From Dendrobates tinctorius (taxonomy: Eukaryota): a stretch of DNA of 64,000 bases. How positions within the stretch are numbered: position 1 is the stretch's first letter; the number at the start of each line of letters is the position of its first letter. This document shows positions 16,801-19,800 of this stretch, piece by piece. The position numbers were made by a program. Location: the NCBI RefSeq assembly GCF_039654945.1, contig NW_027361788.1, positions 44,640,001 to 44,704,000 on the forward strand, given 5' to 3'.

Positions 16801-19800
16801 CAACTTAACACCTAATCCCCTGAAGCCATTGTCCCCTTCAAACAAAAAACAATATCCCTCAAATGCTCGACTTTCTGTCCCACCCGATAATTCATGTCTG
16901 CGACAAATGGTTTTCAACCTTTATGGTGCTATGATGTGATCGTCCAGGCTGAGAACCATTGGTGAATGAGCTGCTGTCAGCTCAGCTTCAGTGAGTAGCT
17001 GTGATGTCATCGAGGTTACTGCAGGTCACAGAGGCTGCATCCCCAGTCGGGCCAGTGAACTGCGGTGACCTCAGTGAGAATTTCTCACGGTGAACTCACT
17101 AAGCTCAGCACTGAACCGTGAGACTTTTTCTCACTGTGCTAGCAGTGACCTTAATGAAATCATCACAGTCCACCATTGCAGCAAATCATTCTCCCCAGAG
17201 CTTCAGCGTGAGCAATCGCCTCCAGCCACCAGTCATGCTGATGAACAAATGTCACACAGAAGGATTATAGAATATTGTATTTTTTATTTTTACAGGGGAC
17301 AATTTCTTCAGGGGATTAGGTGTTAAGGGGAGTATAATGTGATTTTTTTTTTTTTTTTATTCTTAATTTTACATTTGACTACAACGCTCAACATCTTCCC
17401 CTGCTCGCGCTGATCGCGAGGAAAGCAGGCAATAATGATGTGAGCTGTCTATAGCACCCCGGCGCCTGAGAACAGTGGAAACTGTGCTGGCTTTTCTCAG
17501 GCAGCGGTACGTGTCATAAACCAATGCGTCACACAGTTGCCAGTGCCACGCGTATGAAACACACGGACATCAATGCTACTGGCTTTTCCAGTACCGGAAA
17601 TAACAGGACGTGTGACAGAGCCCTCAGGGCATTTATTAGTGGACACATTTTAACCCCTTGAAGGGACTGCCCACTACCAGACCACCCCTTATTAATGGGG
17701 GCATTTTTGATCTCGCTGTGTAGAATTTATTGTAAATAGATGAAGGTTCCGCATTTTATTTAGTCCCATTAGTTTTTTTTGTTTGTTTTTTTTAAAGGAA
17801 TGTATATTACAACTTTTTTTAACATATTTTGATACTGTGTCACTCCCAGATGTGAACAGATGATGAATGACATCCATGATCCTGTAATACACCTGAAGGC
17901 GCCTCACACTCAGCCTCATGCATAATACCAGACACTGACATAAGGAGGCGCTTTCCCAGCAGCCACCAATCAGATATCAGCTTCTATTCCTCAGGGTGGG
18001 TTACACAGATGAGAGCTGGAATCTGATTGGTCACTACTATGACTCCCTATAACCACCAGCAGGAGGCGCAGTGACGTTACCTTGTCGTACATATTGATCT
18101 CGTCATGGTCGTCGTGCTCGTGTTTGGACTGGCTGCCATGACTGACCGTGACCGGGGTTGTGGCCTCAGCCCGAGGACCAGTATGAAGTCTGTATACCGG
18201 GGCCGTCCTCAAGAACCGCGTAGCCCCGGACAACCTCAGCGCCCGCAGACACAAGGGCATCGCCATATTTGTTCAGCCCCGAAAGGAGACTCCGAAAACA
18301 CCGGAAGAGGCGGGCTCTTGTCATAATCTACCAATCAGCATTACGGTGGCGCTAACCGTTGGCAAATGTTAACCAATAAAAATCCTTATAGGGAGTCGCT
18401 AAAAAGGGGCGGGACTTACTTCTCGCTAGACCAATCCACGACCAATGTGAAGGCTTAGCCAATCAAATTCGTGACTTTAGGCGCCATCTTTACTTTGGGC
18501 AGCAGTTTATATAAAAGGCGAGTGACAGCTAGGTAACTATGGAAACAGTGCGAGTCGGGTGAAGATGGCGGATCTGGGTGAGCACCACCGCGGAGAGGTT
18601 CTCAGTTACATGCGGTTCGCGCAGTGTAAGCGGCTGCTGCGGCTGAAGAGTGTGGCGTCCTGCTTCCAGGATGTGCGGGAGAGCCGGCTGGTGGAGGACA
18701 CGTACACGGCGGAGGAGGTGGCCGAGCTGCTGAGCGGCCTGGAGGCGGTGGTGCTGAGCGAGCTCGAGCTGGAGCTCATCAACTCTGCGCACACCAATGT
18801 GCTGCTGCTGCAGCAGCTCTTCTCCCAGGCCCAACACTGGCACCTGCGGCTGCACACCGACATCTCCGAGCTGGAGAACCGCCAGCTGCTGGAGCAGGTG
18901 GCCGAGCTGGAGAAGAGCCAGGAGCTGGGGCCCTCAGCCAAGGGCCCCCAGAGCAGCAAGCCCAGACTGGCCCCTCTGAGCGACGGCGGCTCCGCAGACC
19001 TCCTCCACAATCAGATCGGCCGACTGCAGGAAGAGAACGACAAGCTCCGCGCCAGACTGCGCACCCTAGAGAGCCAGGCCACTGCCGCCCTGGACCACAA
19101 GCGCAGCGCCGAGAAGGCCCTCCAAGACCTGCAGGACCAGGCCCAGCACAACTCCCTGGACCCCCGCCACCTGGAGGACCCCCGCCACCTGGAGGACACC
19201 GTGGCCAGCCTCAGGCTGGAATTCCAGAAGACCCTGGGTGACCACACAGCCAACCAGAGGGGCCTGGAGGAGAGCCTGACCACGACCAAGCACGAGCTTC
19301 TGCGGGTCAATGAGCAGCTGCTGATGGCAGAGAAGGAGCTGGACAAGAAGTTCCAGGAGACCGGGGCCTACCGCAACATGAAGGACATCCTGAGCCGCAA
19401 GAACGAGCAGATCAAGGAGCTGCGCCGGAGATTGTGCAAGTACGAGCCCGAAGACTGAGCCGGGCCGTGACCAGACATTGTGACCAATGGTACCGATCCT
19501 TCTTGTGCGGGTCAGCACGTCAATGACAATAGTCTAGAAATGATCCCCGCTTAGAGACTTCTGCTAATCGCCATTCCCAAGCTCACCGACATCTCCAGCC
19601 TCTCCTGGTGGCTGTCACGGCATGATGGGAATTTTAGTTAAGCCACACGACTATGACCAGAGAATTCTTTTGTAAAATTGTTGAATACTGAGACAGCCCA
19701 AAACACTGCGACCAGCCCTGTTGGTGCCTTCAAAGCCACAGGTTAGAGGACAACTTGCTGATTCCTGGTGGTCCGACCACTGGGACTTTCACTGATCCCG

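What the first reader, a model, noticed from the sequence alone, without database searches (positions are those of the whole stretch)
18565..19458. Intronless LZTFL1 (BBS17) occupying the NDUFB11 bidirectional promoter
Seen: a full-length, intact single-exon ORF, CpG-rich throughout, with no visible poly(A) remnant or TSD, 298 bp from the NDUFB11 ATG. It has an in-frame 18-nt duplication (DPRHLE x2, 19159-19194). Known: mammalian LZTFL1 is multi-exon and autosomal (3p21), and the mammalian head-to-head partner of NDUFB11 is RBM10. Inference: an old functional retrogene that captured a promoter and may have replaced its parent gene.
Basis: partly seen in the sequence, partly recalled or inferred. 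Interest (0 to 1): 0.68.

Follow-up and report, generated by a model that had tools for sequence, protein, structure and literature searches.

The report
Intronless LZTFL1 copy beside NDUFB11
A complete, intron-free copy of the cilia-trafficking gene LZTFL1 (BBS17) sits back to back with the mitochondrial gene NDUFB11 and looks like a working retrogene, a known kind of new gene rather than a new kind of thing.

Summary
Window 18565-19458 (+) is an intact 297-codon ORF that matches the whole Pfam LZTFL1 family model (positions 1-275 of 275, 348.9 bits). Its ATG lies 298 bp from the ATG of a three-exon NDUFB11 gene on the other strand. It carries a perfect in-frame 18-nt tandem duplication.

Human and zebrafish LZTFL1 both have 10 coding exons of matching sizes (PMC6603235). 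Xenopus lztfl1 lies beside ccr9 (PMC8811506). The intronless state and the NDUFB11 position are therefore derived, and retroposition is the best explanation.

Several features favour a maintained gene over a decaying pseudogene:
- It has no poly(A) tract and no target-site duplication, yet the frame is intact.
- GC3 is 0.90 and the enrichment stops at the ORF ends.
- The promoter holds a TATA box and a CCAAT cluster unique in the window.

"CpG-rich throughout" is only partly right. Age, expression, dN/dS and loss of the parent gene could not be tested, because no vertebrate sequence collection was open. Verdict: probable functional retrogene using a head-to-head promoter region, a new member of a known kind and of moderate interest.

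The parts
18565..19458 (+). Uninterrupted LZTFL1-family (BBS17-type) coding sequence, 297 codons plus TGA
   Evidence: ORF. Pfam PF15294 positions 1-275 of 275, 348.9 bits. GC3 0.90, and GC4 0.90 over 141 four-fold sites. Two four-leucine heptad patterns at residues 147-168 and 238-259. AF2 model is mostly long helices: 49-120, 142-195, 206-266, 268-292; mean pLDDT 69.7.
19158..19197 (+). Perfect in-frame 18-nt tandem duplication (2.2 copies) giving DPRHLE twice, residues 199-210
   Evidence: TRF: period 18, 100% matches, score 80. It lies in the low-confidence break between helices 142-195 and 206-266 of the model. Neither leucine pattern is touched.
18267..18564 (.). 298-bp stretch between the two divergent start codons; putative shared or back-to-back promoter region
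   Evidence: CpG o/e 0.98, GC 0.47. No function was tested.
18331..18463 (+). Cluster of five CCAAT pentamers, all on the + strand (18331, 18373, 18431, 18442, 18459)
   Evidence: It is the only place in the window with 4 or more CCAAT/ATTGG sites in 140 nt; Poisson P(5 or more) is 1.8e-5 per 140-nt window. NF-Y binding is inferred from the recalled consensus.
18508..18516 (+). TATA-like element (TATATAAAA), 57 nt upstream of the ORF's ATG
   Evidence: Motif match only.
18533..18546 (+). X-box-like (RFX-type) 14-mer between the TATA element and the ATG; a weak lead
   Evidence: It fits the nematode consensus GTHNYY AT RRNAAC (quoted in bioRxiv 10.1101/2020.08.21.260547, one passage). There are 2 matches in the window against 0.40 expected, and 9 of 100 shuffles reach 2. 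It does not fit the recalled vertebrate-type consensus within one mismatch.
18539..18562 (+). Possible 7-codon upstream ORF ending 2 nt before the main ATG, relevant only if transcription starts upstream of it
   Evidence: Read from the sequence.
18562..18570 (+). YY1-type motif (AAGATGGCG) spanning the ORF's start codon, with A at -3 and G at +4
   Evidence: Mirror-image matches on the minus strand at 18482-18490 and, across the NDUFB11 ATG, at 18261-18269. Consensus recalled.
18081..18266 (-). NDUFB11 coding exon 1 (62 codons, phase 0, AAG|GTAACG donor)
   Evidence: It has no Pfam hit on its own. It is assigned by position, by its splice donor and by the two downstream ESSS exons.
3225..3355 (-). 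NDUFB11 coding exon 2 (131 nt, AG acceptor, GTGAGT donor)
   Evidence: Pfam PF10183 ESSS, 56.5 bits, profile positions 43-85 of 115. Boundaries.
944..1070 (-). NDUFB11 coding exon 3 with TAG stop; a poly(A)-signal hexamer at 917 on that strand
   Evidence: Pfam ESSS, 28.2 bits, profile positions 89-115 of 115. Boundaries and signal.
18301..18307 (+). ETS/GABP-type CCGGAAG, 35 nt from the NDUFB11 ATG
   Evidence: Motif match only, consensus recalled.
19984..20428 (.). Element of about 445 bp with 50-nt terminal inverted repeats, 525 nt after the stop codon; it bounds the unique 3' flank
   Evidence: Self-blastn: 19984-20033 against 20428-20380, 86% identity; I2, I4, I7.

Best explanation
This is a functional retrogene of LZTFL1 (BBS17).

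Origin (inferred): a spliced LZTFL1 mRNA was reverse-transcribed and inserted next to the 5' end of NDUFB11, in divergent orientation.

Expression (inferred): the copy is transcribed from the 298-bp region it shares with NDUFB11. That region is unmethylated-looking and CpG-island-like. On the LZTFL1 side it carries a TATA element, five CCAAT boxes and a YY1-type motif over the ATG.

Product (inferred from the family): an all-helical coiled-coil protein of the LZTFL1 type. In mammals and zebrafish this protein is cytoplasmic, regulates BBSome and Smoothened traffic in cilia, and dampens Hedgehog signalling.

Composition (inferred): GC at silent sites is very high (0.90) and stops sharply at the ORF ends. 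I read this as the composition that intronless mRNAs need for efficient expression, acquired or kept under selection.

Duplication (inferred): the recent 18-nt duplication adds six residues to a proline-containing linker between helices and is probably tolerated.

Shown here: the ORF, the family membership, the lack of introns in the CDS, the geometry relative to NDUFB11, the composition, and the motif matches.

Not shown: retroposition itself, transcription, selection and protein function.
For: 1. Full-length LZTFL1-family ORF without interruption.

2. The ancestral gene structure is 10 coding exons in both human and zebrafish (PMC6603235). Nine introns are therefore missing at once, which is the signature of an RNA intermediate.

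3. The locus is different. Xenopus lztfl1 is next to ccr9 (PMC8811506). Here the neighbours are NDUFB11, TIMM17-type and TAFA-type exons.

4. Maintenance.
- The hallmarks of a fresh insertion (A tract, TSD) are absent, yet the frame is whole.
- In a simple neutral simulation, 682 of 4000 copies stay intact at 5% divergence and 143 of 4000 at 10% with substitutions alone.
- With an assumed 1 indel per 10 substitutions, 19 of 4000 stay intact at 5% and 0 of 4000 at 10%.

5. Composition.
- GC3 is 0.84-0.94 in every 50-codon block, against 0.44-0.53 GC in both flanks.
- GC3 is 0.59-0.73 in the NDUFB11, TIMM17 and TAFA exons.
- Functional retrogenes, but not retropseudogenes, have higher GC4 than their parents (PMC7181179).

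6. Head-to-head retrocopies that use a neighbour's bidirectional promoter, and CpG-island promoters of orphan retrogenes, are documented in mammals (PMC4772013).

7. Promoter anatomy: TATA at 18508 and a CCAAT cluster unique in the window. The start codon has A at -3 and G at +4.

8. The four-leucine heptad pattern that the zebrafish paper calls characteristic of vertebrate LZTFL1 is present.

9. A public protein atlas already holds this exact protein and places it with chordate LZTFL1 clusters (12 clusters at 0.9 or more).
Against: - No direct hallmark of retroposition survives: no poly(A) tract and no TSD. The RNA origin rests on intron absence and on the new locus.
- No poly(A)-signal hexamer (16 variants tried) lies within 1 kb of the stop. 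The first canonical one is ATTAAA at 22032, 2.6 kb downstream, so the 3' end of the transcript is unexplained.
- The GC-rich sequence carries few stops in any frame (2-9 in the other five), so openness counts for less than it would in average DNA.
- The decay simulation uses uniform substitutions and an assumed indel rate and length spectrum.
- No expression data, orthologue, parent sequence or dN/dS could be obtained.
- The parent's GC3 is unknown, so a young copy of a GC-rich parent is not formally excluded.
- The motif matches are consensus hits, chosen after looking.
- The intergenic stretch alone has GC 0.47, below the usual CpG-island cut-off.
Confidence: 0.7

Rival explanations
1. It is an unconstrained processed pseudogene that happens still to be open. 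It would be either a recent insertion or one protected from stops by its GC-rich composition, lying by chance next to the NDUFB11 promoter.
For: - No expression or selection data exist here.
- Stops are rare in all frames of this GC-rich stretch.
- At 2% simulated divergence, 1879 of 4000 copies stay intact by substitutions and 460 of 4000 with assumed indels.
- No nearby poly(A) signal.
Against: - A recent LINE-type insertion should keep its A tract and TSD, and neither is present.
- An old one should be broken.
- Retropseudogenes tend to lose GC4 relative to their parents (PMC7181179). Here GC4 is 0.90 with a sharp drop at both ORF ends.
- The start context, the TATA element and the CCAAT cluster are well formed.
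- The only length change seen is in frame.
Confidence: 0.12
2. It is the sole LZTFL1 of this lineage, an orphan retrogene. The retrocopy took over the BBS17 function and the 10-exon parent beside ccr9 was lost. This is a special case of the best explanation and is the first reader's boldest claim.
For: - Full-length, family-typical protein.
- A broad-expression-type CpG-rich promoter region, as reported for 9 of 10 mammalian orphan retrogenes (PMC4772013).
- No second LZTFL1-like piece in the 64 kb. That is nearly uninformative, since a parent would lie elsewhere.
Against: - Parental replacement is rare among retrogenes. PMC4772013 discusses ten cases, against 88-280 preserved retrocopies per mammalian species.
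- Xenopus keeps lztfl1 at the ccr9 locus.
- Nothing about the rest of this genome could be examined.
Confidence: 0.22
3. It is an assembly artefact: cDNA or transcript-derived sequence wrongly built into the genomic contig.
For: An intronless coding sequence with a composition unlike its flanks.
Against: - There is no vector, adaptor or poly(A) at the ends.
- The ORF is embedded in unique sequence, with a TATA element and CCAAT promoter 5' of it and 525 nt of unique 3' flank before a transposon.
- The only assembly gap is 10 kb away, at 29066-29260.
Confidence: 0.03

Closest known systems
Canonical vertebrate LZTFL1 / BBS17 (10 coding exons; beside CCR9)
   Same: Same Pfam family over the whole model. 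Nearly the same length: 297 aa here against 299 aa in zebrafish. It has the four-leucine heptad pattern and a predicted helical coiled-coil build.
   Different: No introns in the CDS, against 10 coding exons. A different locus, NDUFB11 instead of ccr9. GC3 of 0.90. An extra DPRHLE hexapeptide. Identity to reference LZTFL1 proteins was not measured, because no reference sequence was available to a tool.
Mammalian retrocopies expressed from a neighbour's bidirectional promoter (Carelli et al. 2016, PMC4772013)
   Same: Head-to-head position within 2 kb of a protein-coding gene, and a CpG-rich promoter region.
   Different: The gene content here points to a non-mammalian vertebrate; the organism was not identified by any search. 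Co-expression with NDUFB11 is untested. The LZTFL1 side has its own TATA and CCAAT elements, so the two promoters may be adjacent rather than truly shared.
Orphan retrogenes and retrogene replacement (e.g. RNF113 in mammals, PMC4772013; amphioxus SYCP1, PMC5803294; human set, PMC3548309)
   Same: A single-exon copy of a multi-exon single-copy gene that keeps the whole protein.
   Different: Loss of the parent is not shown here. For PMC5803294 and PMC3548309 I saw only the search listing with the start of the abstract.
GC-enriched functional retrogenes and intronless genes (Mordstein et al. 2020, PMC7181179)
   Same: Very high GC at four-fold sites in an intronless coding sequence set in a less GC-rich neighbourhood.
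   Different: The parent's GC4 is unknown, so enrichment after insertion is inferred and not measured. The published data are mammalian.

Membership tests
LZTFL1 protein family (Pfam PF15294 Leu_zip) | Match to the family profile above the curated cut-off, over its full length | tested here: met
   348.9 bits against a cut-off of 28.2; profile positions 1-275 of 275; E 2.9e-104.
LZTFL1 protein family (Pfam PF15294 Leu_zip) | C-terminal four-leucine heptad pattern and coiled-coil build, described as conserved among vertebrate LZTFL1 (PMC6603235) | tested here: met
   L-x6-L-x6-L-x6-L at residues 238-259 and also at 147-168. Long helices in the AF2 model, mean pLDDT 69.7. The paper's passages were read.
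LZTFL1 protein family (Pfam PF15294 Leu_zip) | Binds BBS9/BBSome and restrains ciliary entry and Hedgehog signalling | not testable with these tools
   Function is known from mammals and zebrafish (PMC6603235 passages). No assay or partner test was run here.
Positional orthologue of LZTFL1 | Ten coding exons and linkage to ccr9 | tested here: not met
   The CDS is uninterrupted. The identified neighbours are NDUFB11, TIMM17-type and TAFA-type exons. None of the 150 frames of 90 aa or more looked like a chemokine receptor on my reading; they were not all scanned against Pfam.
Retrogene (functional retrocopy) | Lacks the introns of a multi-exon source gene | tested here: met
Retrogene (functional retrocopy) | Lies at a locus unrelated to the source gene | tested here: met
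   The source locus in this species itself was not seen.
Retrogene (functional retrocopy) | Poly(A) tract at the 3' end and flanking target-site duplications | tested here: not met
   These marks decay with age and are not made by every retroposition route (LTR-mediated retroposition: PMC5131818, abstract start only). Their absence therefore lowers the directness of the evidence, not the membership.
Retrogene (functional retrocopy) | Intact ORF under purifying selection (dN/dS below 1) and transcribed | not testable with these tools
   Only an intact ORF and a proxy simulation are available. There are no orthologues, no parent and no RNA data.
Bidirectional (divergent) gene pair | Head-to-head orientation with starts less than 1 kb apart | tested here: met
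   The ATGs at 18266 (-) and 18565 (+) are 298 bp apart. Transcription start sites are unknown.
Bidirectional (divergent) gene pair | CpG-island character of the shared region | tested here: inconclusive
   CpG o/e is 0.91-0.98 across 18001-18750 with GC 0.52-0.54 in 500-nt windows, but the 298-bp intergenic stretch alone has GC 0.47.
Bidirectional (divergent) gene pair | Co-expression of the two genes | not testable with these tools
   No expression data.
RFX/X-box-regulated ciliary gene | X-box close to the start of the gene | tested here: inconclusive
   The site at 18533-18546 fits the nematode consensus but not the recalled vertebrate-type consensus within one mismatch. It was found after trying about 16 motif patterns.

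The most novel reading that the evidence does not exclude
In this lineage the ten-exon BBS17 gene has been lost, and this retrocopy is the animal's only LZTFL1. A ciliopathy gene would then run from the promoter region of a mitochondrial complex-I gene. It would have been re-coded to about 90% GC at silent sites to work without introns, and would keep, or have gained, an RFX X-box-like site at its core promoter.
Probability: 0.2. Interest if true: 0.55.

Novelty: new member of a known kind. Interest (0 to 1): 0.36.

Why it matters
If it is expressed, it is a clean non-mammalian example of a retrocopy that became a gene by landing head to head with a housekeeping promoter.

Its extreme, sharply bounded GC enrichment would be a natural test of the idea that intronless mRNAs need GC-rich coding sequence, an idea so far documented in mammals.

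If the spliced parent is gone, a Bardet-Biedl gene has changed locus, structure and regulation wholesale. That would matter for anyone using this group of animals to model ciliopathies or to infer orthology from synteny.

For genome annotation it warns that an "LZTFL1" here is not the positional orthologue.

Tried and rejected
I then located the exons with short peptide patterns and sent each exon on its own. The joined, spliced NDUFB11 model was not built or searched.
- PDB sequence search with the ORF: 0 hits at E up to 0.01.
- Rfam at gathering thresholds over the whole window: 0 matches.
- tblastn of the ORF against the window: only itself, plus one chance-level hit (E 0.28).
- TSD search and A-tract search: nothing above chance.
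- Poly(A)-signal variants within 1 kb: none.
- RBM10-type motifs (RNP1, G-patch, RanBP2 finger, OCRE-like): none in six frames. This is a weak test that would miss diverged or short exons.
- Regional GC-biased gene conversion around the promoter as the cause of the GC3: considered and judged unlikely, because both non-coding flanks stay at 0.44-0.53 GC and GC3 shows no gradient along the ORF.
- Literature: 0 papers hold both LZTFL1 and 'intronless'. Three hold LZTFL1 and 'retrogene'. In two the words are unrelated. In the third 'retrogene' lies outside the 300,000 characters held, and Lztfl1 appears only in an expression table.
- The papers searched for an NDUFB11/RBM10 bidirectional promoter did not name the partner in the passages read.

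Not attempted:
- Fold search of the model: coiled-coil model of moderate confidence, so matches would be uninformative.
- Complex prediction: no binding claim is made.
- The genome-contig collection: it holds bacteria and archaea only.

Closed or absent:
- Protein homologue searches and the metagenome and viral collections. No LZTFL1 from any other species could therefore be aligned, and identity, phylogeny and dN/dS stayed unchecked.
- Supplementary tables of PMC4772013, which list the head-to-head retrocopies, could not be seen.
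Full report
WHAT IS THERE

Window 18565-19458 (+) is an ATG-to-TGA open frame of 297 codons with no interruption. An in-frame TGA lies at 18523-18525, so 18565 is the first in-frame ATG. The start context has A at -3 and G at +4.

The protein matches Pfam PF15294 (Leu_zip, the LZTFL1 family) over the entire model: profile positions 1-275 of 275, 348.9 bits against a cut-off of 28.2, E 2.9e-104. No solved structure matches by sequence (0 hits).

A single-sequence AlphaFold2 model has mean pLDDT 69.7 and pTM 0.39. It is almost all helix: 4-26, 30-39, 41-46, 49-120, 142-195, 206-266 and 268-292.

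The four-leucine heptad pattern that a zebrafish study calls characteristic of vertebrate LZTFL1 is present at residues 238-259. A second one lies at 147-168.

A public protein atlas holds this protein letter for letter. Its nearest clusters are 12 LZTFL1 clusters at score 0.9 or more, mostly chordate. The protein has therefore been predicted before, which says nothing about its gene structure or expression.

THE DUPLICATION

Tandem Repeats Finder reports 19158-19197, period 18, 2.2 copies, 100% matches. It encodes DPRHLE twice, at residues 199-210.

In the model these residues fall in the low-confidence, proline-containing break between helices 142-195 and 206-266. Neither leucine pattern is touched. 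The copies are identical, so the event is recent. It is in frame and sits in a linker, so it is probably tolerated.

THE NEIGHBOUR

On the minus strand an ATG at 18266 opens a 62-codon exon that ends at an AAG|GTAACG donor after 18081. A second exon runs 3355-3225, with an AG acceptor and a GTGAGT donor. A third runs 1070-944, with a TAG stop and a poly(A)-signal hexamer at 917.

I searched this spliced model exon by exon. Exon 2 gives Pfam ESSS (NDUFB11) at 56.5 bits and exon 3 gives 28.2 bits. Exon 1, the presequence, hits nothing on its own. The joined model was not assembled or searched.

Further along the + strand are Tim17-family exons at about 37046-37898 (70.9 bits). On the minus strand are TAFA-family exons at 50008-51125 (72.1 and 66.6 bits).

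No RBM10-type motif was found anywhere in six frames, by a weak test. That RBM10 is the mammalian partner of NDUFB11 is recall. The passages I read only list NDUFB11 among human divergently paired genes.

IS THE INTRONLESS STATE DERIVED?

Yes, on published evidence.
- Human and zebrafish LZTFL1 both have 10 coding exons whose sizes and organisation match (PMC6603235, passages). The multi-exon structure therefore predates the split of ray-finned fish and tetrapods.
- In Xenopus, lztfl1 lies next to ccr9 on chromosome 6 (PMC8811506, one passage). From recall, that is also the human 3p21 arrangement.

The copy in this window lacks all nine coding-region introns and lies at another locus. The established route to that combination is reverse transcription of a spliced mRNA.

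The window holds no other LZTFL1-like coding piece (tblastn). That says nothing about the rest of the genome.

HALLMARKS OF INSERTION

None survive.
- No run of 6 or more A occurs before 20041, and that run belongs to a transposon.
- The most A-rich 20-nt window between the stop and 19983 is 50% A.
- The longest direct match between the upstream 298 bp and 19459-20300 is 8 nt, and 59 of 60 shuffles equalled or exceeded it.
- An element of about 445 bp with 50-nt terminal inverted repeats occupies 19984-20428.

FUNCTIONAL OR DECAYING?

I could not compute dN/dS, so the argument is internal.

First, the frame.
- The hallmarks are gone but the frame is whole.
- In a crude neutral simulation (uniform substitutions), 682 of 4000 copies remain intact at 5% divergence, 143 of 4000 at 10% and 9 of 4000 at 20%.
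- With an assumed one indel per ten substitutions, 19 of 4000 remain at 5% and 0 of 4000 at 10%.
- Against this, the sequence is so GC-rich that stops are rare in every frame (2-9 in the other five frames), so openness is weaker evidence than usual. Still, only 3 of 5000 composition-matched shuffles are open.

Second, composition.
- GC3 is 0.90 and GC4 is 0.90 (141 sites). GC3 is 0.84-0.94 in every 50-codon block.
- The 100-nt bins on both sides are 0.44-0.53 GC.
- The exons of NDUFB11, TIMM17 and TAFA have GC3 of 0.59-0.73.
- The enrichment thus starts and stops with the ORF. That argues against a regional cause such as biased gene conversion around the promoter.
- It fits the finding that functional retrogenes, unlike retropseudogenes, have higher GC4 than their parents, which the authors interpret as a requirement for intronless mRNAs (PMC7181179, passages).
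- The parent's GC4 is unknown, so a rise after insertion is inferred.

Third, the promoter.
- A TATA element at 18508.
- Five CCAAT pentamers at 18331-18463, all in one orientation. This is the only place in the window with 4 or more such sites in 140 nt; Poisson P is 1.8e-5 per 140-nt window.
- A GGGCGG at 18407.
- YY1-type motifs across both start codons and at 18482.
- An ETS-type CCGGAAG 35 nt from the NDUFB11 ATG.

These are consensus matches recalled from memory and not evidence of binding.

Retrocopies lying head to head within 2 kb of a gene and co-expressed with it are documented: 11 in human and 12 in mouse (PMC4772013).

WEAK POINTS

- None of the 16 poly(A)-signal variants tried lies within 1 kb of the stop. 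The first canonical one is ATTAAA at 22032, so the transcript's 3' end is unexplained.
- A 7-codon upstream ORF (18539-18562) would precede the main ATG if transcription starts upstream of it.
- 'CpG-rich throughout' is overstated. CpG o/e is 0.98 in the intergenic stretch, 0.87 in the first 236 nt of the ORF and 0.48 in the rest, against 0.51 for the window.

A LEAD

The 14-mer at 18533-18546, between the TATA element and the ATG, fits the nematode X-box consensus GTHNYY AT RRNAAC (quoted in bioRxiv 10.1101/2020.08.21.260547, one passage).
- The window has 2 matches against 0.40 expected, and 9 of 100 shuffles reach 2.
- The site does not fit the recalled vertebrate-type consensus within one mismatch.
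- I found it after trying about 16 patterns.

It would suit a ciliary gene, but it is no more than a lead.

VERDICT

The best reading is a functional retrogene of LZTFL1 transcribed from the region it shares with NDUFB11 (confidence 0.7). Rivals:
- An unconstrained pseudogene (0.12).
- An assembly artefact (0.03).
- Within the main reading, the bolder claim that the parent has been lost (0.22).

This is a new member of a known kind. I found no paper describing it:
- 0 papers hold both LZTFL1 and 'intronless'.
- Three papers hold both LZTFL1 and 'retrogene'. In two the words are unrelated. In the third, 'retrogene' falls outside the text held.

WHAT STAYED UNCHECKED

- The organism. No call identified it. 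The gene content and the atlas taxa say vertebrate or chordate.
- A spliced parent elsewhere in the genome, and the same locus in other species.
- Identity to reference LZTFL1 proteins, dN/dS and expression.

The assembly gap at 29066-29260 was left as it is. Nothing in the window was taken for human.

Noticed in passing
window 37046-37898 (+): Exons of a Tim17-family gene (TIMM17-type): Pfam Tim17 at 70.9 bits for the 37506-37898 frame and a weak 14.5-bit hit for 37046-37144. From recall, NDUFB11 and TIMM17B are both on human Xp11, so this may be conserved linkage. The paralogue (A or B) was not determined.
   Followed up: partly
window 50008-51125 (-): Two exons of a TAFA (FAM19A) family chemokine-like gene, at 72.1 and 66.6 bits. 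The rest of the gene was not modelled.
   Followed up: partly
window 6802-7863 (-): An uninterrupted 354-aa Tc1/Sleeping-Beauty-type transposase frame (HTH_SB, HTH_Tnp_Tc3_2 and DDE_3 all matched) inside NDUFB11 intron 1. Broken relatives lie at 29459-30536, 39209-39971 and 58419-59333.
   Followed up: partly
window 25230-27906 (-) and 45214-49637 (+): Retroelement remains. One is a Ty3/gypsy-like stretch with an integrase zinc domain (73.6 bits), an integrase core piece and a SCAN/capsid-like gag (52.9 bits). The other is a separate element with a reverse-transcriptase fragment (32.7 bits). Reverse transcriptase sources therefore exist in this genome.
   Followed up: partly
window 8800-8813 (+): A near-perfect palindromic X-box-type 14-mer in NDUFB11 intron 1. 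It is the only site in the window that fits both X-box consensus patterns with 0 mismatches. Its context was not examined.
   Followed up: no
window 9787-10291: A GC-rich palindrome: 184-nt arms at 93% complementarity, 114 nt apart, with a nested 50-nt pair. Mirror-image long open frames lie on both strands. It is probably a foldback-type element.
   Followed up: partly
window 1090-1746: A 34-bp minisatellite, 19.3 copies at 95% matches, starting 20 nt from the acceptor of the last NDUFB11 exon, within intron 2.
   Followed up: no
window 54399-55641; 14780-15448; 11486-12505: Three further large tandem arrays: period 36 with 33.8 copies, open in several frames on both strands; period 40/118 with 16.8 copies; period 386 with 2.6 copies.
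   Followed up: no
window 15657-16246 and 21023-21510: Related palindromic repeat copies (72-84% identity) flank the NDUFB11/LZTFL1 promoter region at about 2-3 kb on either side. They are probably copies of one transposon family, and they are too far out and too diverged to be insertion marks of the retrocopy.
   Followed up: no
window 32778-33062 (-) and 34889-35170 (+): Two almost identical frames of 93-94 aa in inverted orientation about 1.8 kb apart, with matching 77-bp tandem repeats at 33458-33611 and 34345-34496. This is a large inverted duplication or the arms of one element.
   Followed up: no
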